The notes beneath the pieces are model-generated. The model was given only the letters and a program-made list of their open reading frames with translations, was not told the origin of the DNA and ran no database searches. A program made the position numbers and the translations under genes. From a virus (taxonomy: Duplodnaviria > Caudoviricetes), in IMG/VR virus record IMGVR_UViG_3300050336_000035, positions 103,494 through 167,493 of that record: a stretch of 64,000 bases of DNA. One strand, 5' to 3'. How positions within the stretch are numbered: the stretch's first letter is position 1; the number at the start of each line of letters is the position of its first letter. Below, in pieces: positions 1 through 18,714 of the stretch.

Positions 1-1
1 A

Positions 2-127
2 CTTAGTGATTTTCTATATAGAAATAAACATATAATAAATGATTTTGAAGATATGTCTGATTGGAGCATGAATAAAGTAATTAAAAATATTTTAACTAAT
101 ACAAATAAATTTTTAAAAACAACATAA
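2..127 (+). CDS. 3' end of hypothetical protein (partial)
   Basis: Open frame from the window edge to TAA 125-127, which begins a boundary site. Confidence 0.6.
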   Translation, partial: LSDFLYRNKHIINDFEDMSDWSMNKVIKNILTNTNKFLKTT

Positions 128-167
128 AAGACAAATTTTATAATGTTTAAGAAAGGAGATAAGCAAT

Positions 168-548
168 ATGTTTTGGACTAAGAAAAATAAAGTAGAAGTA
201 AACCATATAAGAGTATGTGAAGTTAATCAAGGGTTGCCTGAGTGTAATAGTGTTAATAAACTTAGAGAATATCAGCAACAACTCAAAAATATAAAAAATT
301 CTTCATTAACTGATATCTCTGCAAAATACTTGAATGTTGTTAATGATAGTTATTTAAGAAGTGAGTTATATTGTATTGAAGTTATATTAAATCAATTAAT
401 TCGTCGAACAGATAATACATATATTAATTTTGAAGAAAGATTTAAAGCTTTCGGAAAAGAAATTGATGACTATATAAAGAAAGATTGTATAATAGATGAT
501 TTAATTAAGAAAATAAAAGTTGAGAAAAACATATTAGGAATTGAATAG
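168..548 (+). CDS. Hypothetical protein
   Basis: RBS GAAAGGAG; stop inside a boundary site. Confidence 0.8.
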   Translation: MFWTKKNKVEVNHIRVCEVNQGLPECNSVNKLREYQQQLKNIKNSSLTDISAKYLNVVNDSYLRSELYCIEVILNQLIRRTDNTYINFEERFKAFGKEIDDYIKKDCIIDDLIKKIKVEKNILGIE

Positions 549-585
549 AATTCAGTATTTATAGCATTTAAATTGGAGGTTTTTT

Positions 586-792
586 ATGAAAATTTGTAAC
601 AACACAACAGGAATACGTGATTGTAATGATAAATATTATAAATATGGGTTATGTATTAAGAATAGAAAATGTAAAGATTCTTTATTTGTAAATGAAAATG
701 TTATTAAACAATTGATAATTGAAAAATGTGAATATAATAAAATATTTGCTGATTGTATAGATAATCTTATTTATGAAGCAAAAACAATATGA
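586..792 (+). CDS. Small Cys-containing hypothetical protein
   Basis: RBS GGAGG; stop inside a boundary site. Confidence 0.75.
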   Translation: MKICNNTTGIRDCNDKYYKYGLCIKNRKCKDSLFVNENVIKQLIIEKCEYNKIFADCIDNLIYEAKTI

Positions 793-831
793 AATGCCGT
801 TTTTATTTTACATGAAAGGAATGAAGTTTTT

Positions 832-1065
832 ATGGAAGGATTTGTTATTGATATAAATAAATTTAATCCAACACCTGATTATCAAGATTTTAAAAAAATA
901 GATGAAACTATAAATTATTTATTAATAAAAAGAATACCATTTGTTACAACTCAAGATATAATAGTTTTTCATGAAGATATTTACTTGAAATATAAAGATA
1001 ATATAAATTATTGTGTTAATGAATTACAAAATGAATTTTTAACAGAAACAATTAAAAAAATATAA
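832..1065 (+). CDS. Hypothetical protein
   Basis: RBS GAAAGGA. Confidence 0.7.
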   Translation: MEGFVIDINKFNPTPDYQDFKKIDETINYLLIKRIPFVTTQDIIVFHEDIYLKYKDNINYCVNELQNEFLTETIKKI

Positions 1066-1100
1066 AGCATATAAAATGCGTTTCATCAAAAGGAGAAAAC

Positions 1101-1421
1101 ATGATAAAGTATAAAGGGTTAAAATATAGAAAATTCATTAACTTTATTAATAAAGAGTTGCCAACATTTAATATTATAAAGTTAAAATTATTAAAAGGTT
1201 ATGACACAATTGAAGTTAATAAAACTGATAAAGTTTTTGCTCTTTATTATGTTGAAGAGAAAGCAATATACTTACCAACATCAAATGAGGAAGAAATTAC
1301 ATATACAAATTTAGCCCATGAATATGTTCATGCATGGCAAGACGAGAACAATAAAGACTTTAGTGAAGAAGAAGCCGAATTAAAAGCAAGTGAATTATAT
1401 AATAAGTTTAAAATAAGATAA
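1101..1421 (+). CDS. Small zincin-like metallopeptidase domain protein
   Basis: LAHEYVH (HExxH) followed by EEEA; RBS AAGGAG. Confidence 0.7.
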   Translation: MIKYKGLKYRKFINFINKELPTFNIIKLKLLKGYDTIEVNKTDKVFALYYVEEKAIYLPTSNEEEITYTNLAHEYVHAWQDENNKDFSEEEAELKASELYNKFKIR

Positions 1422-1459
1422 AAATGTGTTTTTATTTAAAAAGGAGAAAAGAGGATATA

Positions 1460-2173
1460 ATGATAAAAGTAGGAATTACTGAACGTGGAGATGCAGGATT
1501 AGATTTCTCATGGGTAAACAAATTACTTGATGTAAACATTATTATTACTAAGAATTTAAATGATATAATAATTCAACATCTTATTGATAATAAAAATAAA
1601 ATAATATTACATATGACTTGTACTGGACTTGGAGCAACAAAAGTAGAACCTAATGTTCCCAATGTGAAATTTACTCACAATCAAATATTAAAACTAATTG
1701 ATAGTGGATTTCCTGTAAATCAAATTGTTTTAAGAGTAGACCCTATTATACCATTACAAATTACATTAGAGCAAAGGGTTAAAAAAGTATTAGATTTATT
1801 TAAAGATACAGGAATTAAGAGGGTTAGATATTCATTTTTAGATATGTATCCGCATGTAAAAGAAAGATTAACAAAAGCAGGATTGAATTTACCATATAAT
1901 ACATTTTGTTGTCCAAATTATATGAAAGAAGATGCTTTAAAGTTGTTAAAAGAATATGAAAATATTTATGAATTTGAAGCATGTGCTGAAAACACCTTTC
2001 ATCAATTAGGATGCATTTCACAAAAGGATTTTGATATTTTAGGGATTGAAGAAAAAGCAATACCATCAGGATATCAAAGAAAAGGCTGTTTGTGTATAGC
2101 TGGTAAAACTGAATTGTTGACCAATAAAAAGAAATGTCCTCATGGATGTTTGTATTGTTACTGGAAAGGATAA
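1460..2173 (+). CDS. DUF1848-like Fe-S / radical-SAM-related protein
   Basis: LRVDPII motif and C-terminal CLC...CPHGCLYCYW; start moved to ATG 1460 behind RBS GAGGA. Confidence 0.7.
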   Translation: MIKVGITERGDAGLDFSWVNKLLDVNIIITKNLNDIIIQHLIDNKNKIILHMTCTGLGATKVEPNVPNVKFTHNQILKLIDSGFPVNQIVLRVDPIIPLQITLEQRVKKVLDLFKDTGIKRVRYSFLDMYPHVKERLTKAGLNLPYNTFCCPNYMKEDALKLLKEYENIYEFEACAENTFHQLGCISQKDFDILGIEEKAIPSGYQRKGCLCIAGKTELLTNKKKCPHGCLYCYWKG

Positions 2174-2219
2174 TGTAATAAAATTGGGATTCTACGCTAA
2201 AAAGAGAGGATGAAATAAT

Positions 2220-2504
2220 ATGAGTGAAATAAGTATTGGAGAAGAAAATTATAACTATTTTACAAATGGAAGATATAAAGCAAATAATTCTCCAAAAGCA
2301 AAAAGTATTAAAAAGAAATTAGAAGATAATGGTCATACTAATGTTTTTGTATGGTATGAAAAGCTAGGTAAAGCAATGGAAATGTGTGGTTGTAGTGGAG
2401 GATATATGTATACTTCTGACCAAAGTCCAATAGAACCTATAGGATATTCCTTTGATGAGGCAATGATAACAATAGAGAAAAAATGGCATAAGATATCAAA
2501 ATAA
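2220..2504 (+). CDS. Hypothetical protein
   Basis: RBS GAGAGGA. Confidence 0.75.
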   Translation: MSEISIGEENYNYFTNGRYKANNSPKAKSIKKKLEDNGHTNVFVWYEKLGKAMEMCGCSGGYMYTSDQSPIEPIGYSFDEAMITIEKKWHKISK

Positions 2505-2600
2505 TTGTGATAAATTCTCAGATTCATTCACTTTTTAAAAGTGATTTGTGGTATCTGAACTAACGTCCGCTTAACCAACAAGCATATTGAATCAATGCTT
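2502..2600 (-). ncRNA. Candidate omega/guide RNA, left copy (scaffold 2600-2522, guide from 2521 outward)
   Basis: Own promoter TTGACA-17-TATACT (2636-2608, -); multi-hairpin scaffold covarying with the right copy; guide boundary is inferred. Confidence 0.65.
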
Positions 2601-2607
2601 AGTTATA

Positions 2608-2636
2608 AGTATAAGGAATATTGTGGCAAATGTCAA
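2608..2636 (-). promoter_or_regulatory. sigmaA promoter firing outward through the left end of the TnpB cassette
   Basis: TTGACA-17 bp-TATACT on -; no ORF downstream. Confidence 0.8.
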
Positions 2637-2677
2637 TAAGTTTTACTAATACTTAATTAATATTAAAATAATATCTA

Positions 2678-2706
2678 TTGACAATACCGTTTAATTAATA
2701 TATACT
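2678..2706 (+). promoter_or_regulatory. sigmaA promoter for the RHH gene
   Basis: TTGACA-17 bp-TATACT. Confidence 0.8.
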
Positions 2707-2778
2707 AATAATTGTAAAAGCAACATCTCTTCCGAACCATTACATAATAATGTATAATTAATATGGGAGAGTGATGAT

Positions 2779-2940
2779 ATGCCAAAGTTTAAAAATAATC
2801 ATATTGGATTTAATGTAAGTGATAAATTAAAGAAAAAGACAGAAGAAGTTTCTAAAGAACATGAAATGAGTTTAGCTGATTTTATGAGATACATTTTACA
2901 AAAATATATAGATGAATACGAAATCAAGAAAAACAAGTAG
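2779..2940 (+). CDS. Ribbon-helix-helix (CopG-like) regulator, 53 aa (not in ORF track)
   Basis: MPKFKNNHIGFNVSDKLKKKTEEVSKEHEMSLADFMRYILQKYIDEYEIKKNK; RBS GGGAG. Confidence 0.75.
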   Translation: MPKFKNNHIGFNVSDKLKKKTEEVSKEHEMSLADFMRYILQKYIDEYEIKKNK

Positions 2941-3020
2941 ATATTAAGAGCAATAATATTCTAGTTTAGCTTATTCGGTTTATATTAAGATATTTAACCT
3001 GTTTTAATATCGTTAGTAAT

Positions 3021-3049
3021 TTGATATTTAGTAATTATTCCCTTATAAT
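3021..3049 (+). promoter_or_regulatory. sigmaA-like promoter for 3111..3554 and the tnpB-like gene
   Basis: TTGATA-17 bp-TATAAT. Confidence 0.65.
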
Positions 3050-3110
3050 AAAAATGTAAGTTAAAGGTTGCAACCACACTTACCTAAATTATTATAAGGG
3101 AGTGTAGATT

Positions 3111-3554
3111 ATGGTTAAAATGGATTATGAAAGAAAGTGTGAGTTAAAAAAATTACAACAGTTTCAAGGACACAGAGTTGAAGTTAGTTTTAACACTCAT
3201 ACACATGATAACAATGTGATGGTTACATTTGTTTATAACAACTTTGATTTTGATAACGGCGAATACATATTGTGTCTTTTTGATTCAAAGGATGAAACAT
3301 TGAATGCTAGACTTGAGAAGAATCTTATAACAACTGTAACAAACATTGATGAAGATATATATCATGATGTTGTACATATTTATACTAATAATTTTATACT
3401 CAGCATAACAACTCTTGAAGAACCCATACGCCTACCTAGATGTAATCATTGTGGAAATGAAATTGAATATAATGAATATTGGCTTGATGGTGCTTATGGT
3501 AGGTTAAGACTTTGCGAAGATTGTTGTTTGGATTTGTATCCTGATAACGAATAG
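3111..3554 (+). CDS. Hypothetical protein with C-terminal Zn finger; paralog of 35653..36159
   Basis: Shares HTHDNxVM, FDFDNGE.xLCLFDS.DE.LN.R and YxDVVHIYT with the paralog; CNHC and CEDC. Confidence 0.85.
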   Translation: MVKMDYERKCELKKLQQFQGHRVEVSFNTHTHDNNVMVTFVYNNFDFDNGEYILCLFDSKDETLNARLEKNLITTVTNIDEDIYHDVVHIYTNNFILSITTLEEPIRLPRCNHCGNEIEYNEYWLDGAYGRLRLCEDCCLDLYPDNE

Positions 3555-3581
3555 AAAATTAAATAGAAAGGAGGAGTAATC

Positions 3582-4985
3582 ATGGCTACTGAAATGAGAG
3601 CAATTAAATTCTATTCTAATAATAAAACAACAACTGAAGATTTCAATAAAGGTATTAACTTTCTATCTGAATGCCAAGAAGTTGAAAATGAATTGTTAGA
3701 GTATTATTGGACTAACTTTACTGAAGTTATTAGAGCGAAATCACAACTTGTTTTTTATAAGAATAGAGTCATGATTACTTCTCCTGCTACAAAATTTCAA
3801 CACTATCAACAAATTTTATTTATGGTATTTAGAACACTTAAAAGTTTAGAAGAAAGAATTACTCAAAAAATACATTTTAAATTTGATGATAAAATGAAAC
3901 AAAGAATATATAACTATTGTAGTAAATTCGTTTTTGATTGGGATAAACTTGAAACATATGTATCTAAACAAATTAAACAGTATAAAAAGAAAGACAAAAA
4001 GTATTATGACTTCTTAATAGAAGTTCAAAAAATTATTGATAATGAACAGGCTTTTTTAAAACTAAAACAAGATATAGAAAATAAGTTTTGGGATTTAAAA
4101 AATAAAATTAATCAACCTGTTAAGAAATCTAAGCAAATATGGGCTACAACTTTTCATACTGTAGATATCGAAAAGTATAATGATTATTGGGTATTTGTGA
4201 TTGACACCAATAAATTTTTAAGTCCTCGCAATATGGATAAGTTTAAAATAGTTGTAAGTATTTCTGATTATCACAGAGATATTCTTAATTCCAATACACT
4301 TCAAAATACTTTTTCTATTAAGTTAAATGATTATGGTAGAATCGAAATTTTTGGAGCATATGAAATTGATATAAATTATCCAACACCTAATCCTGTTGAT
4401 ACTATTGGCATAGATATAGGTTTGAAGAAACTTATTACATCATCTGATGGTGAATTTATTGAACAGAATAAAAACATTGTAAAGAAAGCTCAAAAGTTAA
4501 TTAAGAATCAAGCTAATAGACAGAGTTTGGAAGCTCATATGAAAAAGAAATTAGAAGATGAGAATTTTACTTTACCTGATAAAAATTATATGAAGAAACA
4601 AAACAAATTAAGTAGATTTGTTCAATGTGATAATAGGTATAAAGTTAAACAATTTCTCAAAGGTAGGGAAGATACTCATATCATTATGGAAGATTTGCAT
4701 TTAAATGATGCCAAGACATATAGTAAAGAAGTAAATTATATGTTAAGAAGGATGAAGATACAAGGCATTAAAAATGACATTCTAAAATACACAAAAGAGA
4801 TGGGCATCAAGACTACACAAGTAAATCCTAGATATACGAGTATTGAGTGTCCTATATGTGGCTGTATTGATAAAAAAAATAGACAGACACAAGAAACATT
4901 TAAATGTGTTAAATGTAGTCATACAGATAATGCAGACCACAATGCTAGTATTAATATTGAAAATAAATATTTAAAGGCACAATAA
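3582..4985 (+). CDS. tnpB: TnpB/Cas12f-like RNA-guided endonuclease
   Basis: RuvC-I GIDIG, RuvC-II IMEDL, Zn ribbon TSIECPICG...FKCVKC, RuvC-III NADHNASINI; 467 aa; D-E-D triad intact. Confidence 0.9.
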   Translation: MATEMRAIKFYSNNKTTTEDFNKGINFLSECQEVENELLEYYWTNFTEVIRAKSQLVFYKNRVMITSPATKFQHYQQILFMVFRTLKSLEERITQKIHFKFDDKMKQRIYNYCSKFVFDWDKLETYVSKQIKQYKKKDKKYYDFLIEVQKIIDNEQAFLKLKQDIENKFWDLKNKINQPVKKSKQIWATTFHTVDIEKYNDYWVFVIDTNKFLSPRNMDKFKIVVSISDYHRDILNSNTLQNTFSIKLNDYGRIEIFGAYEIDINYPTPNPVDTIGIDIGLKKLITSSDGEFIEQNKNIVKKAQKLIKNQANRQSLEAHMKKKLEDENFTLPDKNYMKKQNKLSRFVQCDNRYKVKQFLKGREDTHIIMEDLHLNDAKTYSKEVNYMLRRMKIQGIKNDILKYTKEMGIKTTQVNPRYTSIECPICGCIDKKNRQTQETFKCVKCSHTDNADHNASINIENKYLKAQ

Positions 4986-4992
4986 TAAATAT

Positions 4993-5088
4993 AAGGCTTT
5001 AATTTAACGCCTATAGTTAAGCGTACATTAGTACAGATACTATAAATCGCTTTTAAAAGTGAATGAATTGTAGGATTTATATGCTTAT
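4993..5088 (+). ncRNA. Candidate omega/guide RNA, right copy (scaffold 4993-5068, guide from 5069 outward)
   Basis: Directly downstream of tnpB, the usual omegaRNA position; hairpins AGGC/GCCT, TATAGT/ACTATA, GTAC/GTAC, TCGCTT/AAGTGA covary with the left copy. Confidence 0.65.
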
Positions 5089-5105
5089 TATATAAAATAT
5101 AAAGT

Positions 5106-5684
5106 GTGGTGATAATAATAGCAAAAACAGAAATGACATTAAATCTAGAAAAAGAATTGTATTCAAGTACAAACAAAATGGGCGTGTTTGGTTGTTTTGA
5201 AGTTACTATAGGTTGGTATGGCAAAGAACGTGTTGATTATATTACATATGATACTAAAGGGGTTTGGCGTTGTTATGAAATAAAAGTGTCTAAAGCAGAC
5301 TTTCATAGTAAGGCAAAGAAAACATTTGTTGGACATTTTAATTATTATGTTATGCCAAGAGAATTATATGAGGAAGTTAAAGACGAAATACCGAAACATA
5401 TAGGTGTACATATTGGTAGTGGTTGTATAAAGAATGCAAAGAGACAAGAATTATCTGTTGATGAGAAAATATTAAAAGATTCTTTAATACGTTCATTGTG
5501 TCGAGATGCAGAAAAAATTTATACTTCAGAAAATGTTAATTATATTAATAGACTTAAAAAACAAATATCAAATCTTGAAAAAGAAAGTAAAGAATGGAGA
5601 AAAGACTACTACGATTTATATAAAAAAGTTAGAGAATTGTATGGTAGAGATTGGGATAAGGATTTGATTAATTTTGATGAGTAG
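5106..5684 (+). CDS. MmcB-like PD-(D/E)XK nuclease domain protein
   Basis: EVTIG...RVDYI...CYEIKVSKADFHS. Confidence 0.7.
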   Translation: MVIIIAKTEMTLNLEKELYSSTNKMGVFGCFEVTIGWYGKERVDYITYDTKGVWRCYEIKVSKADFHSKAKKTFVGHFNYYVMPRELYEEVKDEIPKHIGVHIGSGCIKNAKRQELSVDEKILKDSLIRSLCRDAEKIYTSENVNYINRLKKQISNLEKESKEWRKDYYDLYKKVRELYGRDWDKDLINFDE

Positions 5685-5919
5685 GACTATAATTATGAAT
5701 AGAAAAACACTAATAAACATACTCAATAATTATGATGGAATTGTAGCAAAAGAAGTATCTAAAGAAGAATATGATAATTTAATCATAGAAGATACTATAC
5801 CCGTTTTAGATGATATCAAAGGTATAATAATTAAGAAATCTTATTATCCAGATTATGAAGGTTGTAAGTGGTTGATTACATACAAGATATTGGCTGAAAT
5901 AAAAGTAAAGAGTTTATAA
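5674..5919 (+). CDS. Hypothetical protein
   Basis: Overlaps the upstream gene; stop inside a boundary site. Confidence 0.7.
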   Translation: MMSRTIIMNRKTLINILNNYDGIVAKEVSKEEYDNLIIEDTIPVLDDIKGIIIKKSYYPDYEGCKWLITYKILAEIKVKSL

Positions 5920-5959
5920 AATCGGGGTTCTGTTGTGTTTTTAGATATTAAAATAATAT

Positions 5960-5988
5960 TTGACAATTCTCAAACTTGATATTATAAT
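5960..5988 (+). promoter_or_regulatory. Consensus sigmaA promoter inside a cassette
   Basis: TTGACA-17 bp-TATAAT. Confidence 0.85.
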
Positions 5989-6033
5989 TATCTTGAGGTG
6001 ATAAAATTCATCAACTTAAAGAGAGGAAAAAAT

Positions 6034-6204
6034 ATGTTTAAAAAACTTAAAGAATGGATTTTAAATAAAATACTCAAAAGAGACTATACAATGACTTATG
6101 TTATGGGTGTAGATATTTATGGTACAGAATATGGCTATAAGAAAGAAGGATATAGAGATAAAAGTGGTCAAATTCACATTAGTAAAGTTACACTCTTTGA
6201 ATAA
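6034..6204 (+). CDS. Hypothetical protein
   Basis: ATG behind RBS GAGAGG; stop inside a boundary site. Confidence 0.65.
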   Translation: MFKKLKEWILNKILKRDYTMTYVMGVDIYGTEYGYKKEGYRDKSGQIHISKVTLFE

Positions 6205-6239
6205 ATCAGCAATTCTATGATAAATAAAGGAGAATTTTT

Positions 6240-6404
6240 ATGATTAATTGTAATGCAGAATGTAAATATGAGTGTAATGGAGAATGTATTTTACATCCAG
6301 ACAAAATAAAACTTGTAATAAGAAAATATAGTGATGATTTTAAAAAACAATATTTAGAATGTGATTCTCAAATTCTTGAAGATAGAGACATGGGAATTAG
6401 ATAA
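6240..6404 (+). CDS. Small Cys-rich hypothetical protein, 54 aa (not in ORF track)
   Basis: RBS AAGGAG; MINCNAECKYECNGEC...; fills the space between two boundary sites. Confidence 0.7.
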   Translation: MINCNAECKYECNGECILHPDKIKLVIRKYSDDFKKQYLECDSQILEDRDMGIR

Positions 6405-6436
6405 AATCAAACTTCTATGATGATTGGAGAAAAAAC

Positions 6437-6760
6437 ATGAATGATATAATAATAAGTTTACTTAAAGAAAAGATAGATTATTATTCTCATAATGCTAAAT
6501 TGTTATATGATGATTATAAATATTACTGTTATGTTAAGGCTTTACGTCAGGAACTATACAGCACATTAAAAATTAGAAATGAATTCAAAAGAGCATTAAA
6601 AGAATATAAGAAACTATTACATAATGTACAGATAGAAAAGTATAAAAAAGCAATAAAAGAATATAGAGAACATCCAGACAAATATGCAGAAGATATTTTG
6701 GGAGTAAAGCTATATCCATATCAAAAAGAAATATTAAAATATTTTTATAAAGCAAGATAG
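6437..6760 (+). CDS. Hypothetical protein; C-terminus resembles a terminase large-subunit N-terminal motif
   Basis: YREHPDKYAEDILGVKLYPYQKEIL. Confidence 0.65.
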   Translation: MNDIIISLLKEKIDYYSHNAKLLYDDYKYYCYVKALRQELYSTLKIRNEFKRALKEYKKLLHNVQIEKYKKAIKEYREHPDKYAEDILGVKLYPYQKEILKYFYKAR

Positions 6761-6796
6761 AAAACTTAATTCATCACAAATTGAAAGGAAAACAAA

Positions 6797-7114
6797 ATGA
6801 ATAATAATTTACCTTGCGAAGATAATGATTGTGCATATTATAAAATGGATTACCAAGATAGAACTTATTGTAGTAAGAAAAATAGATTCATAGATAATGA
6901 AACAGGTGAATGCGAATATTTTACGCCTTCTCAAACTTGTGATTTGTGCAAACATTCTTATATGAAAGTCTATGAAACTGGTTCTATAGATGATATTGAA
7001 TATTATTGTAAATTACAAAATGGGAAATTAATATATGATGATTTAAGTCCTTATATGATAAATTTTGCAGATTTTCCTAAATGTAATATAAACAAATTTG
7101 AAAAGAAGGACTGA
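6797..7114 (+). CDS. Cys-rich hypothetical protein
   Basis: RBS GAAAGG; multiple Cys. Confidence 0.75.
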   Translation: MNNNLPCEDNDCAYYKMDYQDRTYCSKKNRFIDNETGECEYFTPSQTCDLCKHSYMKVYETGSIDDIEYYCKLQNGKLIYDDLSPYMINFADFPKCNINKFEKKD

Positions 7115-7155
7115 ATCAATTCACCATTTTAATCACTTTTAGAAAGGAGGTAATT

Positions 7156-7593
7156 ATGTCTGAGGAAAGTTTAAAACTTAGTAAAACAAGAAAAGAATAT
7201 TGTGAATACATATATTATAGAATACTAAATAAATTAAAAGAAGCCAATGAACATCAATTACTAGCTTTTGCTATGTTAGGTATGCATTTATGCTTAAGAC
7301 AATCTGATATTCTTAAATTAAAATGGGAACAAATTGATTTTGAAAATATGAAAATAAACAATGTGCATCTTCTTAAAGGTGGTTACATTGGCTCTCTTGA
7401 TTTAGAAATTAGATTGGTTAGTGCTTTAAAGAAATGGTATGAAAATACTGATGACAAAACAATGATATTTCCTAAATTAAAAAGATATGAAACAGGAAAT
7501 AAAATTGGTGAGTTAATAGGAGATACAACATTTAATAATCACGATTTAAGAAGTATTGGTTTATGTTTAAAATTGCAAGGGGTTATATATTAG
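7156..7593 (+). CDS. Truncated tyrosine recombinase catalytic-domain protein
   Basis: LRQSDILKLKWEQIDF and HDLR boxes present; lacks the core-binding domain and the H/W-Y region. Confidence 0.75.
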   Translation: MSEESLKLSKTRKEYCEYIYYRILNKLKEANEHQLLAFAMLGMHLCLRQSDILKLKWEQIDFENMKINNVHLLKGGYIGSLDLEIRLVSALKKWYENTDDKTMIFPKLKRYETGNKIGELIGDTTFNNHDLRSIGLCLKLQGVIY

Positions 7594-7635
7594 CATGAAA
7601 ATATCTTTTATTTAAAAAAGAGGAGTAATATAAAA

Positions 7636-7797
7636 ATGTTAAATGTTGATAAAAATATAATTAATTTTATAAATAGTGATGAATATAAGTGGTATAAAGA
7701 TGGTACAAAAAATGGAATTTGGATTGGATTATTTTTAGGGTTTTGGCTTGGAATGTTAATGATGACTATATTAGTTATAATAGGATTCTTTAAATAA
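7636..7797 (+). CDS. Small membrane protein, 53 aa (not in ORF track)
   Basis: RBS GAGGAG; hydrophobic C-terminus; stop inside a boundary site. Confidence 0.7.
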   Translation: MLNVDKNIINFINSDEYKWYKDGTKNGIWIGLFLGFWLGMLMMTILVIIGFFK

Positions 7798-7822
7798 AAC
7801 TACTCTTCTAAACACATTTTTA

Positions 7823-8710
7823 TTGAAAGGATTGAAGAAAATATCTAAATATAAATATAATGATTATCACAAAGAGATAAATGGAAAAGAATATAAAAAA
7901 TGTACATTACATAATGAGTACTTTCCTAATGATTCTGAATGGTTTATTTGTTCATCTGATTTTTTCTTTGTTAACAAAACAAACAAGACCGATGGGTTAT
8001 ATCCCTATTGTAAAAAATGTTCAAGTAAAAAATATATGAAATGGGAGAAAGAACATCCTGAAGAATATTTAGCACATAATTTCAGACAAAATCGAAGAAA
8101 AGAAAAAATAGAAGCAAGAAGAAAAATATCTCAGCAACGAAGAGAAAATGGTTACTATGATGATTATTTTGAATTGAATCCAGAAAAGAAAAAACAATAT
8201 GCTGAAAATCATCGAGACCATGATATAACAAATGCAGAATGGATAGCTAATAAAAACTTTTTTAAAAATGAAAATGGGGAATGGGTATGTGCCTATTGTG
8301 GAATGACAGAAAAGGAACATAAGACTATTAGAAGAGAGCAACTTCACAAAGAACATGTTGAACACAATGGATATAATGATGTAAGAAATTGTGTTCCTGC
8401 TTGTTACACTTGTAACTCTAGTAAATGGCAATATGACATGGAAACTTGGTATAGAGAACAAACATTCTTTAACGAAGATAATCTTGCTAAAATAAAACTT
8501 TGGTGTTCAAATGAATATAAAAAATATATTGAAGATAAACCACCATATATTATAAAACGAAGTAGAGTAAATGATGATAATGGCAAATATCATTATGAAT
8601 ATAATTTATGGACTGTTGATGTAATGAGAAATATAGTTGAAATAATTTATACAGGTAATAAGAAAAAGGATATGATTAATTACATAAACAATAATAAATT
8701 AGAAAATTGA
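7823..8710 (+). CDS. HNH endonuclease
   Basis: CAYCG...HKEHV...NCVPACYTCNSSK; N-terminal Zn motif; start uncertain. Confidence 0.85.
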   Translation: MKGLKKISKYKYNDYHKEINGKEYKKCTLHNEYFPNDSEWFICSSDFFFVNKTNKTDGLYPYCKKCSSKKYMKWEKEHPEEYLAHNFRQNRRKEKIEARRKISQQRRENGYYDDYFELNPEKKKQYAENHRDHDITNAEWIANKNFFKNENGEWVCAYCGMTEKEHKTIRREQLHKEHVEHNGYNDVRNCVPACYTCNSSKWQYDMETWYREQTFFNEDNLAKIKLWCSNEYKKYIEDKPPYIIKRSRVNDDNGKYHYEYNLWTVDVMRNIVEIIYTGNKKKDMINYINNNKLEN

Positions 8711-8715
8711 AACAT

Positions 8716-8739
8716 AGGCGTAGAGCCTATTCTACGCCT
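8716..8739. terminator. Hairpin after the HNH gene
   Basis: AGGCGTAGA-gcctat-TCTACGCCT. Confidence 0.6.
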
Positions 8740-8792
8740 TAAAAAACATGATGAAACATGAAATTCATGCTGTTATTGGAAGGAATTAAATT

Positions 8793-9227
8793 ATGAGTTA
8801 TGTCAATGATTATCAAAAGAAGCGCAAAGATGAATATTTAGAACAGGGTTATGATTTAGCACAAGCTAATATTAAATTTAAACGTTGGATGCAAAATCAC
8901 ACTACTAAACAAAAGAAAGTATTTAAAAGAAATGGATTAAAATATATTTATGTTAATTATACACCTTATATAGATTCTGGATGCGAAAAGTGGTATGTAG
9001 ATATTGATTATAATACAAATATATGCTATCTATATCATAAAAATAGAGAAAATGGAACATATCATTTTCAACAAGAATTCAACAAAGGTAAATTTATTAC
9101 TGATAATTTGATTAATATTTGTAATTATATATGGGGACATTCAAATAAACATATTCAAAAAGATTTTAATAACACATTAAGAGATAAATTATATAAAGCA
9201 GGAATTGAAGAAACACTATTGAGTTAA
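8793..9227 (+). CDS. Hypothetical protein
   Basis: RBS GGAAGG. Confidence 0.75.
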   Translation: MSYVNDYQKKRKDEYLEQGYDLAQANIKFKRWMQNHTTKQKKVFKRNGLKYIYVNYTPYIDSGCEKWYVDIDYNTNICYLYHKNRENGTYHFQQEFNKGKFITDNLINICNYIWGHSNKHIQKDFNNTLRDKLYKAGIEETLLS

Positions 9228-9288
9228 TATGAAATTGGACTTTCATTTGGTTTATTTAGTTATGATATAAAAAAAATAATTTTTTAAT

Positions 9289-9630
9289 ATGAAAGGGAAG
9301 AAAATAATGAAAGAGATTTTAACAACTTTTGGTTTACCTATTTTAACTGGTATATTTGCATTTTTAGGTTCTATATACAAAAGTAGAATTGACTTAAAAA
9401 AGCAAATAGATTTAAACAATGCAGAATTAGAAAAAGTACGTGAGCAATGCAATAACGAAATCGAAAAAATCAAGGCACAAGCCGAGACTCAAGCACAATT
9501 ATATGAAAAGAATGCACAAACCGACATAACAACTACTTTTATGAATACTTTATTTAAGAATCCAAAAATTTCAAATACTATTAATGATTTTATGATTAAA
9601 GAAATGAATAAATCATTTTTGTCAAAATAA
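9289..9630 (+). CDS. Membrane-anchored coiled-coil protein
   Basis: N-terminal TM segment then coiled coil; true start may be Met7. Confidence 0.7.
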   Translation: MKGKKIMKEILTTFGLPILTGIFAFLGSIYKSRIDLKKQIDLNNAELEKVREQCNNEIEKIKAQAETQAQLYEKNAQTDITTTFMNTLFKNPKISNTINDFMIKEMNKSFLSK

Positions 9631-9705
9631 AACCCTTGCTACATAAGGGTTTCAGAACACAAAAATGTGATGAAATGGATATTTTATAATGAGGTTAATT
9701 TAATT

Positions 9706-9840
9706 ATGGATAATAAAGAAAAAGAAAAAATTAAGAAATTTGCAGAAGCTTTATTTGATAAAAGAATGTTAGAAATATTAAAACCCTATCAATATAATCA
9801 GAAGATTTGTAAATTTATTGAAATTAAAAATATAAAATAA
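9706..9840 (+). CDS. Small hypothetical protein, 44 aa (not in ORF track)
   Basis: RBS GAGGT; lies between two boundary sites. Confidence 0.55.
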   Translation: MDNKEKEKIKKFAEALFDKRMLEILKPYQYNQKICKFIEIKNIK

Positions 9841-9861
9841 AAGAATAATTAGTGAGGATAT

Positions 9862-10200
9862 ATGAATTTACATAAGTTTTTTATAGATAAAATAAATGAA
9901 GAAATATATAAAGCTCTAGGAGTTAGTGACTCATTGTTTGTGTCAACATCAGCAACAACCACTAATAATTGTGCCGTGTCAATAGAAGAAATAAAACTAG
10001 CATTAGAAAATGTAAGACCTGAACATGCAGTTTTACTTAGTAATTATGCTCCACATGGAACTGATATTTTTGAAATCGAGAATCCTTTGCCAGATAAATA
10101 TTTCTGTAAAAAATTACTTTTACTAAATGCAGATTGTTATGAATCTTTGCTTAAGAAAATTTTAGAAGAATATAACTGTGATATAAAAGTTTATAGATAA
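9862..10200 (+). CDS. Hypothetical protein
   Basis: RBS GAGGA; stop inside a boundary site. Confidence 0.75.
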   Translation: MNLHKFFIDKINEEIYKALGVSDSLFVSTSATTTNNCAVSIEEIKLALENVRPEHAVLLSNYAPHGTDIFEIENPLPDKYFCKKLLLLNADCYESLLKKILEEYNCDIKVYR

Positions 10201-10240
10201 AATTATGTTTTGGTCATATTATTAGAAAGGAAATTTTTAA

Positions 10241-10411
10241 ATGAAAAATATTGAAGAAGTAAGGAAAATTTGCGGTCATTATTGGAATAAGCCAGAGTAT
10301 AAACCACAGTTAAATGAACATAGATGTCATCATATTGCTGGTAATAGTTGCCCAAATAGTTTTAAAGATTGCCCATTATACAAATTAGTTCAAAAAAATA
10401 TTATAAAATAA
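10241..10411 (+). CDS. Small Cys/His-rich protein, 56 aa (not in ORF track)
   Basis: RBS GAAAGG; MKNIEEVRKICGHYW...CPLY. Confidence 0.65.
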   Translation: MKNIEEVRKICGHYWNKPEYKPQLNEHRCHHIAGNSCPNSFKDCPLYKLVQKNIIK

Positions 10412-10437
10412 TAGATTCATTATGAAATGAGGTAACT

Positions 10438-10656
10438 ATGAGAAAACCATTTAGAGATATTATTGATATGCCTGAATATCAAGCAGGAATGGAAGATGGT
10501 TGGGAGACTTTAAAAGATGTATCTAAGTTAGATAAATTCTATATTAAGGGTTTAGTTAAATGGTACGTCTGTAAAACACCTAAAGGAAAAACATTTAAAT
10601 TTGCTTATAAAGACACACCGAAAGGCAGGATGTGGATTAAATTTAAGTTTGATTAA
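10438..10656 (+). CDS. Hypothetical protein
   Basis: RBS GAGGT. Confidence 0.7.
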   Translation: MRKPFRDIIDMPEYQAGMEDGWETLKDVSKLDKFYIKGLVKWYVCKTPKGKTFKFAYKDTPKGRMWIKFKFD

Positions 10657-10676
10657 TTGATGTTAATATAATATAT

Positions 10677-10705
10677 TTGACAATATTATGTCCCTATGTT
10701 ATACT
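10677..10705 (+). promoter_or_regulatory. sigmaA promoter with extended -10 for the SLT-nrdD block
   Basis: TTGACA-17 bp-TATACT with TG extension. Confidence 0.8.
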
Positions 10706-10783
10706 AATATTGTAATGAAAGGGGTGATGCTATATGCTCTATCCAAGCATGACTAATATTAATTAAACGAAGGAGATGGTGAA

Positions 10784-11449
10784 GTGAAAAAACTTATAAC
10801 TTTAGCTTTATGCACAGGGGTATTTATTATCAGTATTTGGTCATATAATTCTAATGTACAGAGTGCTAAAATTACAAGCTACGAAACACAAAAAGAAATT
10901 GATGCATTAAAATTTGAAAAAGGAAAACAATTACTTAAATCTATTCAGGAAGAGAAAAGAAAAGAAGTAATAAATAATAAAATAATACAAGCGCAAATAC
11001 AAGTACAAAAAGAAATTCCACTATATGACATACCACTTAATATTGATATACAAAAATACATATACAAAATTAGCAAAGAAAAAAATATACCCCATGAATT
11101 AATATTGGGTGTAATAAAAACTGAAAGTGATTTTAGACCTAATCAAACACATAAAAATAAAAATGGAAGCATAGATATTGGACTTATGCAGGTAAACTCG
11201 TGTCACGTTGATATATGTAAAGAATTAGGTATAACCAACTTATATGACCCTTATCAAAACATCAAAATAGGAGCAACATTATTAGCAAACATCTATAATA
11301 GTTACCCAAACATACATAAAGCGATGATGGTTTATAATATGGGACTTGGAGGAGCTAGGCGAAATTGGAAAGTAGGCAGGAGTAGTACTGATTATAGTAG
11401 AAAAGTAGTAAATAATATTAATATAATTTTAGCTTGTAAGCAGGAGTAA
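10784..11449 (+). CDS. Lytic transglycosylase (SLT domain) with N-terminal anchor
   Basis: VIKTESDF, DIGLMQVN, YNMG motifs. Confidence 0.9.
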   Translation: MKKLITLALCTGVFIISIWSYNSNVQSAKITSYETQKEIDALKFEKGKQLLKSIQEEKRKEVINNKIIQAQIQVQKEIPLYDIPLNIDIQKYIYKISKEKNIPHELILGVIKTESDFRPNQTHKNKNGSIDIGLMQVNSCHVDICKELGITNLYDPYQNIKIGATLLANIYNSYPNIHKAMMVYNMGLGGARRNWKVGRSSTDYSRKVVNNINIILACKQE

Positions 11450-11457
11450 TAAAACAT

Positions 11458-11643
11458 ATGATACGATTGGAACTATGCACTTATACCAGTTGCCCAAAAT
11501 CTAAAGAATGTTATAGAACTGTTGCCGAAATTGGAATTAACGGTTTTGCAAACTTTAAAAATATTTGTGGTGACTGGAATAATTATAAATATTATTATGA
11601 AATAGGTGATAAGCCTACAAGAAAGGAGGAATTAGAAAATTGA
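11458..11643 (+). CDS. Small Cys-rich hypothetical protein
   Basis: RBS AGGAG; CxxxxCPxxxxCYR. Confidence 0.7.
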   Translation: MIRLELCTYTSCPKSKECYRTVAEIGINGFANFKNICGDWNNYKYYYEIGDKPTRKEELEN

Positions 11644-12038
11644 CAAATATAAATAGATACATATCTGCACAAGAGAAAAATAATACAGAAGAAAAATGTA
11701 AAAAAGAATTTATTCAATTCAAGAAAATGCTAAGAAATTTTGAAGATTTAATAGACCATTGGTATGATGAAAAGTGTGAAATTGATAATTCATACAAAAA
11801 TCATTTAAATGACGAAATTTCTTACGAAGTCGCTAAAAACAAGGCTTGTAACCCTTGTGACTGTAAGGACACAAATGCAATAAAAGATGCATTTCATGAA
11901 AAATTAGATTTAACCAATATTAGGAAGCAGTTTCTTGATTCATATCGTGGTGATATTCCAGATGAATCATTAAATTGGATTTACAAAACATTTGCATACA
12001 TAGAAGTTAATATTAATAATATAATTTCAAAGGAGTAA
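11640..12038 (+). CDS. Hypothetical protein
   Basis: RBS AGGAGG; TTG start. Confidence 0.7.
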   Translation: MTNINRYISAQEKNNTEEKCKKEFIQFKKMLRNFEDLIDHWYDEKCEIDNSYKNHLNDEISYEVAKNKACNPCDCKDTNAIKDAFHEKLDLTNIRKQFLDSYRGDIPDESLNWIYKTFAYIEVNINNIISKE

Positions 12039-12042
12039 ATAC

Positions 12043-14505
12043 ATGGCTGAAATGAAAGTGGCAAAAAGAAAAAAGGGTAAAATAAACTCAACTGATTTAA
12101 ATTTATTAGTTGAATCTACTACACAAGAAGAAATATTTGAATATGATAAAAATAGAATAATACATACTTTACAAGAAGAAATTGATTGTCCAAATGATAT
12201 AGCTATTAAAGTAGCAGATATAGTTACAGAAAGATTAAATGCAACTAATACCAAAATACTTACACCATCATTAATAAGAAGTTTTGTTAATGTAGTACTC
12301 TGTGAATATGGCTTTGATAAACAACTTAAATCTAATTCAGAAATTACTATATCAACTAACGATGTAGAATCCTTAATCTTTAATAAGAATAAAGAAAACG
12401 GTAATACTCCACATAATCCTGAAAGTATTAACTTAGCTTTAGCAGGTTTAGTTATTAAACAATATACTTTGAAAAAGATACTTCCAAAACATTTAAGGCA
12501 AGCACATCTACAAGGTGATATACACATTCACGATATGGATATGTATGATAGATTATATTGTTCAGGACATAATCCAGAATATATCAAACGTAATGGAATA
12601 AAGAATATGGATAATATTCCTAATGATAGCAAACCTGCTAACTCTGCATGGGTAGTAGCTAGACATATGGCATCTGCTACATTATTCTATACTTCGCTTT
12701 TTGCAGGTGCAATAGGTTGGGATTCTGTAAATATGTTTCTTGCTCCATATACTAGAGGATGGGATTATAAAAAATATAAACAATTAGCACAAACACTGAT
12801 ATTTGATTTTGCTCAGTTAGCAGGTGCAAAAGGGGGGCAGGTATCTTTTACTGATTTTAATATTTATGCAAATGTTCCACAATTTTATAAAGATACTTAT
12901 GCTGTAGGTAAAAATGGTTGTTACATGGTGGAAGATTCTGATGATATTATTCACTATATTTATAATAAATCCGAAGCTGAATTATTTGCTCAAGAAAATA
13001 ACTATAAAATACTTACATATAAAGATTTTGAAACTGAGTCACAATATATATGTAAAGCTTTATTAGAAGTATCTAAAGAAGGTGATTCTAGGGGTATGCC
13101 ATTTGGATTTCCTAAGTTGCACTTCCATATAAATAATGAAGTTTTTGAACATGAAAGCTCAAAAGAATTGTATAAATATGCTTGTGAAGTATTAAGTTTA
13201 CAAGGAAATCCATATATAGATTTTGATAGGAACGCCGCATCAATGTCACAATGTTGTAGATTAGTTATTGAATTTGATAATTCTGATATGGAGCTTACAA
13301 AAACTCCTGAAGAATTACGCTTTGTTGGAGGAGAAAATGTATCTATAAATCTTCCAAATATTCCATTGATGTGTAGTAATGATGAAGTTAAAATATTCGC
13401 AGAAATTAAACGTAGAATTGACATGGCTGTTGAAGCTCATAAAATCAAACTGGAGTATATTAAATCTATAGTTGAAGTTGAAGGTAGTCCATTAAAATTT
13501 TACAAAGAAGGCTGTGATGAAAAACCTTATGTTAGATTTGATAAAATATCTTGGCTTATAGGTATGGTTGGTTTAAATGAATGTATTTATAATTTGACTG
13601 GCAAACAGCTACATGAAAGTAAATCCGCTTATATTAAAGGATTAGAAATAATTTCATTTATGAATCAGTATTGTAAAGAATTATCTAAAAAACATAATAT
13701 GAAGTTTATTTTGGAAGAAACCCCCGCAGAGTCTACCGCAGGAAGATTTGCAAAACTTGATAGAAAAAAGTATGGAGATAAAACATTTGTTAAAGAAAAT
13801 GATTATGGTTTTTATTACAGTAATAGTATTCATTTTGCTGTTGATGCTAAGATAGATTATATTGATGAGTTACAATATCAGTCCAAATTTCATAGTTTAG
13901 TTGAAGCAGGCTCAATGATTCATGTTTGGGTTGGAGATAAAAGACCTTCTCCTAAAGCTATTTCAGACTTAATATATAAAGTTTGGAAGAACACAAAATG
14001 TACAGAAATGACTATATCTCCAAATAAAACTGTATGTAATAACTGTAAAACAACTGTAGATGGATTTCATGATTTTTGTCCAAAATGTAATAATACAAAT
14101 GTATTTTGGATAGCAAGAATTACTGGATATCAGGTTAGAGTCGATAAATTTAACGCTAGTAAACTTGCAGAGTTGTTTGATAGAAATAATCATGATATTG
14201 AAAATGATAATTTATCAATTAATTTTCTAGAAAATGATGTACCAGAAACCAATGATATTAAAATATACTCTTTACCAAATTGCCCTAATTGTAGAAAGAT
14301 TAAAACTTATTGCAAAACAAATGATATTATTTTTACCGAATTCAATACTGAAAATGATTTTAAAGCAAGAGCTAGAATAATTGCTGAAGGACTAGAAAAC
14401 TTTCCAATAATCCAACTAGGTAATAAATTTATAGAGTATGATTTTAATAAGGACTCAGAAATAAAAGAAATAATAAAGGAATATAATAATTGTTTAAATC
14501 AGTAG
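12043..14505 (+). CDS. nrdD: Class III (anaerobic) ribonucleotide reductase with ATP cone and fused C-terminal glutaredoxin/NrdH-like domain
   Basis: GDIHIHD, SQCCRL, ETPAES, CxxC...CPKC, glycyl-radical loop RITGY; C-terminal IYSLPNCPNC...FPII. Confidence 0.92.
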   Translation: MAEMKVAKRKKGKINSTDLNLLVESTTQEEIFEYDKNRIIHTLQEEIDCPNDIAIKVADIVTERLNATNTKILTPSLIRSFVNVVLCEYGFDKQLKSNSEITISTNDVESLIFNKNKENGNTPHNPESINLALAGLVIKQYTLKKILPKHLRQAHLQGDIHIHDMDMYDRLYCSGHNPEYIKRNGIKNMDNIPNDSKPANSAWVVARHMASATLFYTSLFAGAIGWDSVNMFLAPYTRGWDYKKYKQLAQTLIFDFAQLAGAKGGQVSFTDFNIYANVPQFYKDTYAVGKNGCYMVEDSDDIIHYIYNKSEAELFAQENNYKILTYKDFETESQYICKALLEVSKEGDSRGMPFGFPKLHFHINNEVFEHESSKELYKYACEVLSLQGNPYIDFDRNAASMSQCCRLVIEFDNSDMELTKTPEELRFVGGENVSINLPNIPLMCSNDEVKIFAEIKRRIDMAVEAHKIKLEYIKSIVEVEGSPLKFYKEGCDEKPYVRFDKISWLIGMVGLNECIYNLTGKQLHESKSAYIKGLEIISFMNQYCKELSKKHNMKFILEETPAESTAGRFAKLDRKKYGDKTFVKENDYGFYYSNSIHFAVDAKIDYIDELQYQSKFHSLVEAGSMIHVWVGDKRPSPKAISDLIYKVWKNTKCTEMTISPNKTVCNNCKTTVDGFHDFCPKCNNTNVFWIARITGYQVRVDKFNASKLAELFDRNNHDIENDNLSINFLENDVPETNDIKIYSLPNCPNCRKIKTYCKTNDIIFTEFNTENDFKARARIIAEGLENFPIIQLGNKFIEYDFNKDSEIKEIIKEYNNCLNQ

Positions 14506-15161: not shown

Positions 15162-15364
15162 TAAACATTTTAAATATTGATAAAAATCCTAATGAACAAG
15201 AATATAAAGAAATTACTGCTGATGTAATAGCATGTGATGGATATTGTCCTTGTGTACCTAAAGAGAAAAGAAATAATAATACAAAATGCATATGTAAAGA
15301 ATTTAAAGAACAAGATTTTGAAGGTTATTGCCATTGTGGTAGATTTTATAAGCATGAAGTATAA
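15155..15364 (+). CDS. Ferredoxin-thioredoxin reductase catalytic subunit-like protein
   Basis: GYCPC...CIC...CHCG pattern (CPC/CxC/CHC). Confidence 0.8.
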   Translation: MVINILNIDKNPNEQEYKEITADVIACDGYCPCVPKEKRNNNTKCICKEFKEQDFEGYCHCGRFYKHEV

Positions 15365-15382
15365 AAAATAAGGAGAAAAATA

Positions 15383-15901: not shown

Positions 15902-15916
15902 TCACATCTAAATAAG

Positions 15917-15959
15917 TTAATAGGGGTTAGGTGATTAAATTATTGATAACCCCTATTAA
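15917..15959. terminator. 13-bp perfect stem-loop after dut
   Basis: TTAATAGGGGTTA ... TAACCCCTATTAA. Confidence 0.55.
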
Positions 15960-16038
15960 TCCTACCTTATTAAATAGGTTATTTAACAATAGTATTTGTA
16001 AATTTTTAAAATATATGTATTTCAAAGGAGAAATATTT

Positions 16039-16212: not shown

Positions 16213-16221
16213 GAGGTAAAA

Positions 16222-16587: not shown

Positions 16588-16608
16588 TATAAATTAGAAA
16601 GGATAATT

Positions 16609-17472: not shown

Positions 17473-17510
17473 AATAAAAAATCTATTTTATAAAGAAAGG
17501 AATTTTAAGA

Positions 17511-18691: not shown

Positions 18692-18714
18692 AGAACAAGA
18701 AAGGAAATTATTTT

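What the first reader, a model, noticed from the sequence alone, without database searches (positions are those of the whole stretch)
2511..5079. The two predicted guides match the two possible empty-site alleles, with built-in self/non-self discrimination
Seen: both inner arms read ATGAAT going outward and both outer arms read ATAAAT going inward; the spacers differ (tctcag vs tgtagg). Removing the cassette would give ATAAAT-[tctcag or tgtagg]-ATTTAT. The right guide (tgtaggatttatatgc...) matches the tgtagg allele on +. The left guide (ctgagaatttatcaca...) matches the tctcag allele on -. In both cases the 5' neighbour is ATAAAT in the empty site but ATGAAT in the occupied site. Established: Tn916-type excision leaves a heteroduplex coupling sequence that segregates into either allele, and TnpB cuts empty donor joints carrying a 5' TAM. 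Inference: two guides let the cassette cut both excision products (retention or homing), with a TAM like TAAAT. This also supports the N6 sites being spacer-tolerant recombination sites.
Basis: inference. Interest (0 to 1): 0.9.

Follow-up and report, generated by a model that had tools for sequence, protein, structure and literature searches.

The report
Two-guide TnpB cassette in a phage
A phage gene cassette encodes an RNA-guided nuclease (TnpB) with a guide-RNA gene at each end pointing outward, but the proposed "two empty-site alleles" and A-versus-G self-protection rule do not survive comparison with its sister copies and a related phage.

Summary
The sequence is as described. Window 2522-5068 is a TnpA-less TnpB cassette whose ends are inverted copies of an 80-nt structured RNA scaffold. 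Each scaffold ends in one arm of an 18-bp 6-6-6 dyad (ATRAAW, N6, WTTYAT).

Supported:
- Both ends look like outward omega-RNA genes (compensatory changes at 16 of 21 pairs; the left copy has a near-consensus promoter).
- The 167-kb phage holds three diverged copies. Other windows of this genome were noted earlier in this scan.

Not supported:
- The dyads are not specific to the cassette. There are 51 in the phage at spacing 6, against about 7 at any other spacing.
- Each N6 is unique. Seven dyads in related phages share their N6 exactly with a G000 dyad (42 of 42 bases), although the flanks have diverged.
- In a related phage both N6 of copy 2 flank a different four-gene cassette. So the spacers travel with the flanks, not with the element. 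This argues against Tn916-like coupling sequences and spacer tolerance.
- The A/G rule fails: 7 of 17 scaffolds end in ATAAAT, the proposed permissive form.

Best reading: RNA-guided homing, or cassette displacement, into an addressed slot. No empty site was found, and there is no expression or cleavage data.

The parts
2510..2527 (.). Left junction dyad: outer arm 2510-2515, spacer N6 2516-2521, inner arm 2522-2527
   Evidence: sequence. It is one of 51 strict dyads in the phage.
2502..2521 (-). Predicted left guide (N6, outer arm and about 8 nt of flank), read on the minus strand. Its length is assumed by analogy with TnpB guides.
   Evidence: It lies immediately 3' of the left scaffold. No RNA data.
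2522..2601 (-). Left omega-RNA-like scaffold (four helices)
   Evidence: Covariance model hit of 95.6 bits. Covariation.
2608..2636 (-). Outward sigma-70-type promoter for the left scaffold (11 of 12 consensus positions, 17-nt spacer)
   Evidence: Equivalent 12 of 12 promoters lie at the same distance in L116 and L117. Seen by eye in copies 2 and 3.
2678..2706 (+). Promoter-like site ahead of the small regulator gene (11 of 12)
2779..2940 (+). 53-aa ribbon-helix-helix (Arc/CopG-like) regulator. Copies 2 and 3 have an HTH protein in its place.
   Evidence: PHROG hits at 3e-4; ORF maps
3111..3554 (+). 147-aa accessory protein with a C-terminal CxxC...CxxC, conserved in the dual-guide cassettes; function unknown
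   Evidence: Alignment A4. No Pfam or PHROG family. The structure model is too weak to use.
3582..4985 (+). 467-aa TnpB/Cas12f-like nuclease with RuvC D278, E371 and D452 and a zinc finger at C423, C426, C442 and C445
   Evidence: PF07282 at 3e-15. Aligns to Cas12f/TnpB structures with the catalytic motifs matched. Positions.
4989..5068 (+). Right omega-RNA scaffold, directly 3' of tnpB
   Evidence: Model hit of 91.5 bits. The same position is kept in clade members down to about 50% protein identity, with only a weak model hit (22.7 bits) in the 46% member.
5063..5080 (.). Right junction dyad: inner arm 5063-5068, spacer 5069-5074, outer arm 5075-5080
5069..5088 (+). Predicted right guide (N6, outer arm and about 8 nt of flank)
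   Evidence: It lies immediately 3' of the right scaffold. No RNA data.

Best explanation
Window 2522-5068 is a transposase-free TnpB module that sits in a slot between two addressed 6-6-6 dyads of the phage genome. It carries two copies of its omega-RNA scaffold. The usual copy lies 3' of tnpB. A second copy on the opposite strand has its own promoter. Both are read outward, so each guide is the neighbouring spacer N6, then the outer dyad arm, then a few bases of flank. Each N6 is unique in the genome and conserved at the same position in related phages. The seed of each guide therefore reads the address of one border of the slot. Inferred function: during co-infection, TnpB loaded with the two RNAs cuts a related genome that has the same two addresses but a different cassette, or none, between them. 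Repair from the TnpB-bearing genome then copies the cassette in. This would be RNA-guided intronless homing, or cassette displacement. The element's own junctions are spared because the scaffold's last bases, at the TAM position, differ from the usual dyad arm. Shown: the anatomy, the RNA covariation, the promoters, the genome-wide dyads, the address conservation and one cassette replacement. Inferred: transcription, cleavage, the TAM and homing.
For: - TnpB is intact: PF07282 at 3e-15, with the D-E-D motifs aligned to Cas12f/TnpB structures.
- On 16 scaffolds, 94.9% of cells are paired and 16 of 21 pairs show compensatory changes. 0 of 500 shuffles reach this, and slid controls collapse.
- The right scaffold keeps its place 3' of tnpB in clade members down to about 50% identity, with only a weak 22.7-bit hit in the 46% member. 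It is therefore the clade's omega-RNA.
- The left scaffold is preceded at a fixed distance by an 11 or 12 of 12 consensus promoter in the window, L116 and L117. The same was seen by eye in copies 2 and 3.
- Homology between copies starts exactly at the inner arm.
- Dyads are genome-wide: 51 at spacing 6 against 3-14 at other spacings. They are intergenic and absent from 401 kb of unrelated phage loci.
- N6 is conserved between phages: 7 of 30, with 0.37 expected.
- The copy 2 slot holds a different four-ORF cassette in G001 with both N6 unchanged.
- The copy 2 guides match that allele at 16 of 16 and 14 of 16 positions.
- 16 of 17 scaffold ends are not TRAAA, whereas 74% of arms at other dyads are.
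Against: - There is no RNA-seq, cleavage or TAM data.
- Single-sequence folding energies are not better than shuffles (z of -0.8 and -1.1).
- Only one orthologous alternative allele was found.
- In that allele the arm next to the left target is ATAAAT, which is also a self arm elsewhere. At most one of its two borders would then be licensed under my TAM guess.
- One scaffold (G001 left) ends in TAAAA.
- Scaffold ends are homologous, so their bias is not independent evidence.
- Distant clade members manage with one guide.
- N6 conservation could be explained by a recombinase alone.
Confidence: 0.5

Rival explanations
1. A Tn916-like, spacer-tolerant recombinase excises the cassette and leaves a single dyad with either spacer. 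The two guides each match one allele. The TAM is TAAAT, and the occupied site is immune because it has GAAT.
For: The geometry gives a consistent TAM position: the outer arm of the opposite flank is ATRAAW at most junctions. Single dyads with 6-nt spacers are abundant. The spacers at the two junctions differ in all six dual elements (12 of 36 positions equal, about chance). The phage encodes tyrosine recombinases.
Against: Seven of 17 scaffolds end in ATAAAT. Those junctions would be self-cut under the proposed TAM. Both spacers of copy 2 also flank an unrelated cassette in G001, so neither spacer came with the element. Spacers are conserved between orthologous dyads. No recombinase lies inside the cassette, and no empty site was found.
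Confidence: 0.12
2. The inverted repeats act only as DNA ends for cassette exchange by a recombinase or by homologous recombination. TnpB uses only the right omega-RNA. The left copy is a by-product of symmetric ends and gives no functional guide.
For: Distant clade members have only the right scaffold. The inner arms are halves of a recombinase-like site. A Xer-like recombinase is encoded in the phage.
Against: A near-perfect promoter lies at a conserved distance from the left scaffold in five of the six dual-guide elements (the sixth, G001, has a weaker -35). All four helices of the left copies keep pairing through compensatory changes. A DNA end would not need 80 nt of conserved RNA-type structure.
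Confidence: 0.15
3. The two guides serve competition rather than spread. TnpB cuts co-infecting relatives at the two slot borders to exclude them. Gene conversion is incidental.
For: The same anatomy as the best explanation. The guides match the rival allele in G001. Killing of competitors by phage homing nucleases is described in the review PMC13565253.
Against: Sequence alone cannot separate this from homing. The cassette is found at several addresses and in several phages, which fits spread.
Confidence: 0.15

Closest known systems
IS200/IS605-IS1341 TnpB with omega-RNA (ISDra2 type; Meers et al., PMC10055086)
   Same: A RuvC and zinc-finger nuclease. The scaffold RNA lies at the 3' end of tnpB. 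The guide is whatever lies just outside the element end. The proposed role is homing by cutting the allele that lacks the element.
   Different: There is no Y1 TnpA anywhere in the phage. The ends are 80-nt inverted repeats, not unlike LE and RE hairpins. A second, promoter-driven scaffold sits at the other end. The ends are embedded in 6-6-6 dyads. The protein clade is separated from other TnpBs by a gap from 42% to 36% identity and below.
Free-standing homing endonucleases of T-even phages (Seg and Mob; intronless homing; reviewed in PMC13565253)
   Same: A nuclease gene sits between conserved phage genes. It is thought to cut the co-infecting relative near its own position and to be copied in by repair.
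   Different: Recognition here would be by RNA guides, at both borders. The targets include a conserved 12-nt address.
Tn916-type elements with coupling sequences
   Same: AT-rich arms around a 6-nt variable segment at each junction, and spacers that differ between left and right.
   Different: The cassette has no Int or Xis. The spacers stay with the flanks when the cassette differs and are conserved across phages.
Xer/dif sites, pdif modules, and recombinase-mediated cassette exchange with heterospecific spacers
   Same: Inverted arms around a 6-nt spacer, with weak symmetry extending to about 11 bp per arm. Every spacer in the genome is unique. Cassettes are swapped between two sites with different spacers. 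A full-length Xer-like recombinase is encoded in the phage.
   Different: No recombination has been shown. The arms alternate independently, unlike the strict XerC/XerD alternation of pdif modules (counted from the listing). The recombinase is 20 kb away.
Fanzor (eukaryotic TnpB) in transposons with terminal inverted repeats
   Same: The guide-RNA scaffold overlaps a terminal inverted repeat.
   Different: As far as I know, and from memory only, a second transcribed scaffold at the other end has not been described for Fanzor. Here it has its own promoter.

Membership tests
TnpB / Cas12f-like RNA-guided nucleases | Split RuvC domain with D, E, D, plus a zinc-finger TNB domain | tested here: met
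   PF07282 at 3.2e-15 over its cut-off; PF01385 weak. Motifs align to Cas12f 9nzq and to TnpB 9nzp. Residues are D278, E371, D452 and C423, C426, C442, C445.
TnpB / Cas12f-like RNA-guided nucleases | Structured scaffold RNA next to the 3' end of the gene, followed by a variable guide | tested here: met
   The model R1 hits lie 3' of tnpB in the eleven elements examined, one of them weak. Covariation. Sequence outside the scaffold is unrelated between copies. Transcription was not tested.
IS200/IS605 transposon | Y1 TnpA transposase in the element or the genome | tested here: not met
   No PF01797 match in the complete 167-kb phage. No serine recombinase either.
IS200/IS605 transposon | Insertion directly 3' of a short conserved TAM, with no inverted repeats | tested here: not met
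   The bases directly outside the left ends are not conserved. The ends are 80-nt inverted repeats.
CRISPR-Cas12f | CRISPR array of direct repeats and spacers | tested here: not met
   No array in window 1-9000 or in 2300-5300. The two scaffolds are inverted single copies.
Tn916-type element | Element-encoded tyrosine integrase and excisionase | tested here: not met
   The cassette ORFs are a regulator, a 147-aa protein and TnpB.
Tn916-type element | One junction spacer (coupling sequence) is carried in with the element | tested here: not met
   Both spacers of copy 2 are also present around a different cassette in G001.
Tyrosine-recombinase (Xer-type) core site | Two inverted half-sites around a 6-8 bp central region | tested here: met
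   51 sites at spacing 6, against 3-14 at other spacings. The arms do not covary as a hairpin would: G pairs with C in 7 of 23 and A with C in 11 of 28 (counted from the listing). They therefore behave as protein half-sites.
Tyrosine-recombinase (Xer-type) core site | A cognate recombinase that recombines these sites | not testable with these tools
   Four PF00589 hits in the phage, one of them a full-length Xer-like protein. No link to the dyads was shown.

The most novel reading that the evidence does not exclude
This would be a natural RNA-guided cassette-exchange drive. A phage lineage partitions its accessory genes with Xer-type dyads whose unique 6-nt spacers act as addresses. A TnpB cassette has evolved two outward omega-RNAs whose seeds read the addresses of both slot borders. 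It could then cut out whatever rival cassette a co-infecting relative carries in that slot and replace it with itself.
Probability: 0.3. Interest if true: 0.9.

Novelty: new variant of a known kind. Interest (0 to 1): 0.72.

Why it matters
TnpB is the ancestor of Cas12, and its known role is to keep IS200/IS605 transposons in place. Here it appears without any transposase, in uncultured large phages. It has a compact 80-nt scaffold, duplicated so that both borders of the cassette are targeted, and it is tied to a genome-wide set of addressed dyads. If confirmed, this would be an RNA-guided counterpart of phage homing endonucleases and a natural two-guide design. It would also make the dyad system testable as a cassette-exchange mechanism in phages. 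The short scaffold and the natural dual-guide layout may interest tool developers.

Tried and rejected
- Empty-site searches found nothing:
  - megablast of window 1400-6400 against cultured phages: none;
  - the left-flank protein in IMG/VR: none;
  - an exact 20-mer of the right guide in JGI metagenomes: none;
  - a 16-mer of the copy 2 left junction: 120 hits, none homologous;
  - exact look-ups of both flank proteins found only Logan contigs of the same phage, which break inside the cassette;
  - the closest right-flank homologue (80% identity) is not syntenic.
- A target-site duplication was rejected: left and right spacers agree at 12 of 36 positions, about chance.
- The arm-N6-arm hairpin that RNAalifold proposed was rejected: the arms do not covary across the 51 dyads (counted from the listing).
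- A 12-nt-spacer empty site was rejected: spacing 12 is not enriched.
- Rfam gave no family.
- tblastn of TnpB against cultured phages gave none.
- The structure of the 147-aa protein had pLDDT 57 and was not searched further.
- An IMG/VR scan with a scaffold core pattern gave 34 loci, of which only the G001 contig is real.
- G001 has no tyrosine recombinase in its 65 kb, but it is only 36% complete.
- Not all gene-content differences between G000 and G001 break at dyads.
Full report
**The sequence as described.** One search shows the left junction at 2510-2527 as ATAAAT, tctcag, ATTCAT, and the right junction at 5063-5080 as ATGAAT, tgtagg, ATTTAT. The inner arms are the tips of an imperfect inverted repeat that runs about 80 nt into the cassette on each side.

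**The cassette.** Between the repeats lie three genes.
- A 53-aa ribbon-helix-helix regulator at 2779-2940.
- A 147-aa protein with a C-terminal pair of CxxC motifs at 3111-3554.
- A 467-aa TnpB/Cas12f-like protein at 3582-4985.

TnpB matches PF07282 at 3e-15. It aligns to solved Cas12f and TnpB chains with the three RuvC motifs and the zinc finger in place: D278, E371, D452 and C423, C426, C442, C445.

The window belongs to a complete 167,493-bp IMG/VR phage with direct terminal repeats and 26.7% G+C. The phage holds three copies of the module at 78-80% nucleotide identity. All three have the same order: left repeat, small regulator, accessory protein, tnpB, right repeat. The regulators differ: RHH in copy 1 and HTH in copies 2 and 3. 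There is no Y1 TnpA and no serine recombinase in the genome.

**The repeats are RNA genes.**
- The six ends align over 80 nt and fold into four helices with compensatory changes.
- A covariance model built from them finds only these six sites plus one relic in the phage.
- The model finds both ends of related cassettes in three other contigs: G001/L013, L116 and L117.
- It finds a single copy directly 3' of tnpB in L118 and in more distant clade members at 46-55% protein identity: L119, L126, L128 and L132, the last only weakly at 22.7 bits. The right copy is therefore the omega-RNA of this TnpB clade.
- On 16 scaffolds, 94.9% of cells are paired and 16 of 21 pairs show changes on both sides. 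No shuffle out of 500 reaches this, and sliding the partners destroys it.
- The left copy is read on the minus strand. It is preceded by a promoter with 11 of 12 consensus positions in the window (2636 to 2608) and by 12 of 12 promoters at the same distance in L116 and L117. Copies 2 and 3 show the same by eye.

Two caveats apply. Folding energies of single sequences are no better than shuffles. Rfam has no matching family.

**Where the element ends.** Copies 1 and 2 are 78 of 80 identical from the inner arm inward and unrelated outward. Across 17 junctions the outside reads a variable N6 followed by WTTYAT. The match is exact in 13 junctions and near in 4.

**The dyads are genome-wide.**
- The pattern ATRAAW, N6, WTTYAT occurs 51 times in the phage at spacing 6, against 3-14 at any other spacing from 0 to 20. 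In the window it occurs 18 times against 2.8 expected.
- Only exact matches to this degenerate consensus are enriched.
- The sites are intergenic. 26 of 51 are followed within 60 nt by a ribosome-binding site and a start codon, against 12% of random positions.
- The R and Y positions of the two arms do not covary (counted from the listing). The arms therefore behave as protein half-sites, not as a hairpin. Weak symmetry extends to about 11 bp per arm.
- The dyads are also enriched in the loci of other phages that carry this TnpB clade. They are not enriched in 401 kb of unrelated phage loci.
- All 51 spacers are different.

This lead came from earlier first-reader notes on other windows of the same genome. 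I tested it here.

**Spacers are addresses.** Seven of 30 dyads in the other phages carry a spacer identical to that of a G000 dyad, where 0.37 would be expected by chance. In these seven pairs the spacers agree at 42 of 42 bases, while the 20 nt on either side agree at only 45%. Their order is also kept.

**The one alternative allele found.** The 65-kb contig G001 has the left flank of copy 2 with the same arm and the same spacer. It also has the right flank with the same spacer and arm. Between them lies a different 1.7-kb insert with four ORFs. L118 has a TnpB at the same right address.

**Consequences for the finding.**
- *The A/G rule.* The scaffold ends in ATGAAT at six junctions and in ATAAAT at seven, including copy 2 right and copy 3 left. 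Outer arms are mostly ATGAAA or ATAAAA. A TAM of TAAAT would therefore make several elements cut themselves, so the rule is not general.
- *The empty site.* Because both spacers of copy 2 also flank another cassette, neither came in with the TnpB element. The slot with two dyads predates it. The alternative state seen is cassette replacement, not a single dyad. No empty site was found by any route.
- *Spacer tolerance.* Conservation of spacers between orthologous sites points to spacer-specific pairing, as in Xer, lox or FRT sites, and not to Tn916-like tolerance. The differing left and right spacers (12 of 36 equal) are what exchange at two heterospecific sites, or homologous recombination in the flanks, would leave.

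**Proposed mechanism (inference).** The seed of each guide is the 12-nt address (spacer plus outer arm) of a slot border. That address is conserved in relatives even where the flanks drift. The copy 2 guides match the G001 allele at 16 of 16 and 14 of 16 positions. TnpB could thus cut one or both borders of a rival allele during co-infection and be copied in by repair. After any move to a new slot the guides would reprogramme automatically.

Self-protection must lie at the TAM position. 16 of 17 scaffold ends are not TRAAA (they are TGAAT, TAAAT, TACAA, CGTAA and TAGAA), whereas 74% of arms at the 45 other dyads are TRAAA. I therefore guess a TAM of TRAAA. This is weak evidence. The scaffold ends are homologous, one (G001 left) is TAAAA, and the G001 left allele shows ATAAAT.

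**Recombinases.** The phage has four PF00589 hits. One is a full-length Xer-like protein with the N-terminal SAM-like domain, at window 24753-25661. It is a candidate for acting on the dyads, but nothing links them.

**Novelty.** The protein clade has about 64 members at 42% identity or more, then a gap to 36% and below. They lie on large uncultured phage-like contigs, and none is in cultured phages. Full-text searches found TnpB homing and a review that discusses homing into co-infecting phages. They found no element with two omega-RNAs and none tied to such dyads.

**Verdict.** The anatomy is real and unusual. The specific two-allele and A/G reading is not supported.

Noticed in passing
window 1-20000 and the whole phage (G000): About 45 further 6-6-6 dyads (ATRAAW, N6, WTTYAT) sit between accessory genes. 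Each has a unique spacer, and several spacers are conserved at the same position in other phages. This looks like an addressed cassette array.
   Followed up: partly
window 24753-25661 (+): A 302-aa Xer-like tyrosine recombinase. It matches the XerC, XerD and XerA models over their full length at about 1e-67, and it has the SAM-like N-terminal domain. It is a candidate enzyme for the dyads.
   Followed up: partly
window 7156-7593 (+): A 145-aa fragment-sized tyrosine recombinase homologue, 2 kb downstream of the cassette (PF00589 at 4e-8).
   Followed up: partly
G000:C1:64898-65086 (outside the window): A relic. The last codons of a different TnpB type are followed by helix 4 of this scaffold, an inner arm, a spacer one base off that of copy 2 left, and an arm. 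A near-dyad bounds it on the left, and its spacer equals that of the L117 right junction.
   Followed up: partly
window about 35849-36067 (-), that is G000:C1:139342-139560: A stretch 70% identical to part of the 147-aa accessory gene, outside any TnpB cassette.
   Followed up: no
L117 1757-2707: In a related 341-kb scaffold, an MrpR-type tyrosine recombinase gene lies next to the left end of the TnpB cassette.
   Followed up: no
L118 2297-5485: A relative in which the slot ending at the same right address holds a 169-aa ORF, a D12-class methyltransferase and TnpB. It has only the right scaffold.
   Followed up: partly
window 3068-3077: A short GC-rich perfect palindrome between the promoter-like site and the accessory gene. 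It may be an operator.
   Followed up: no
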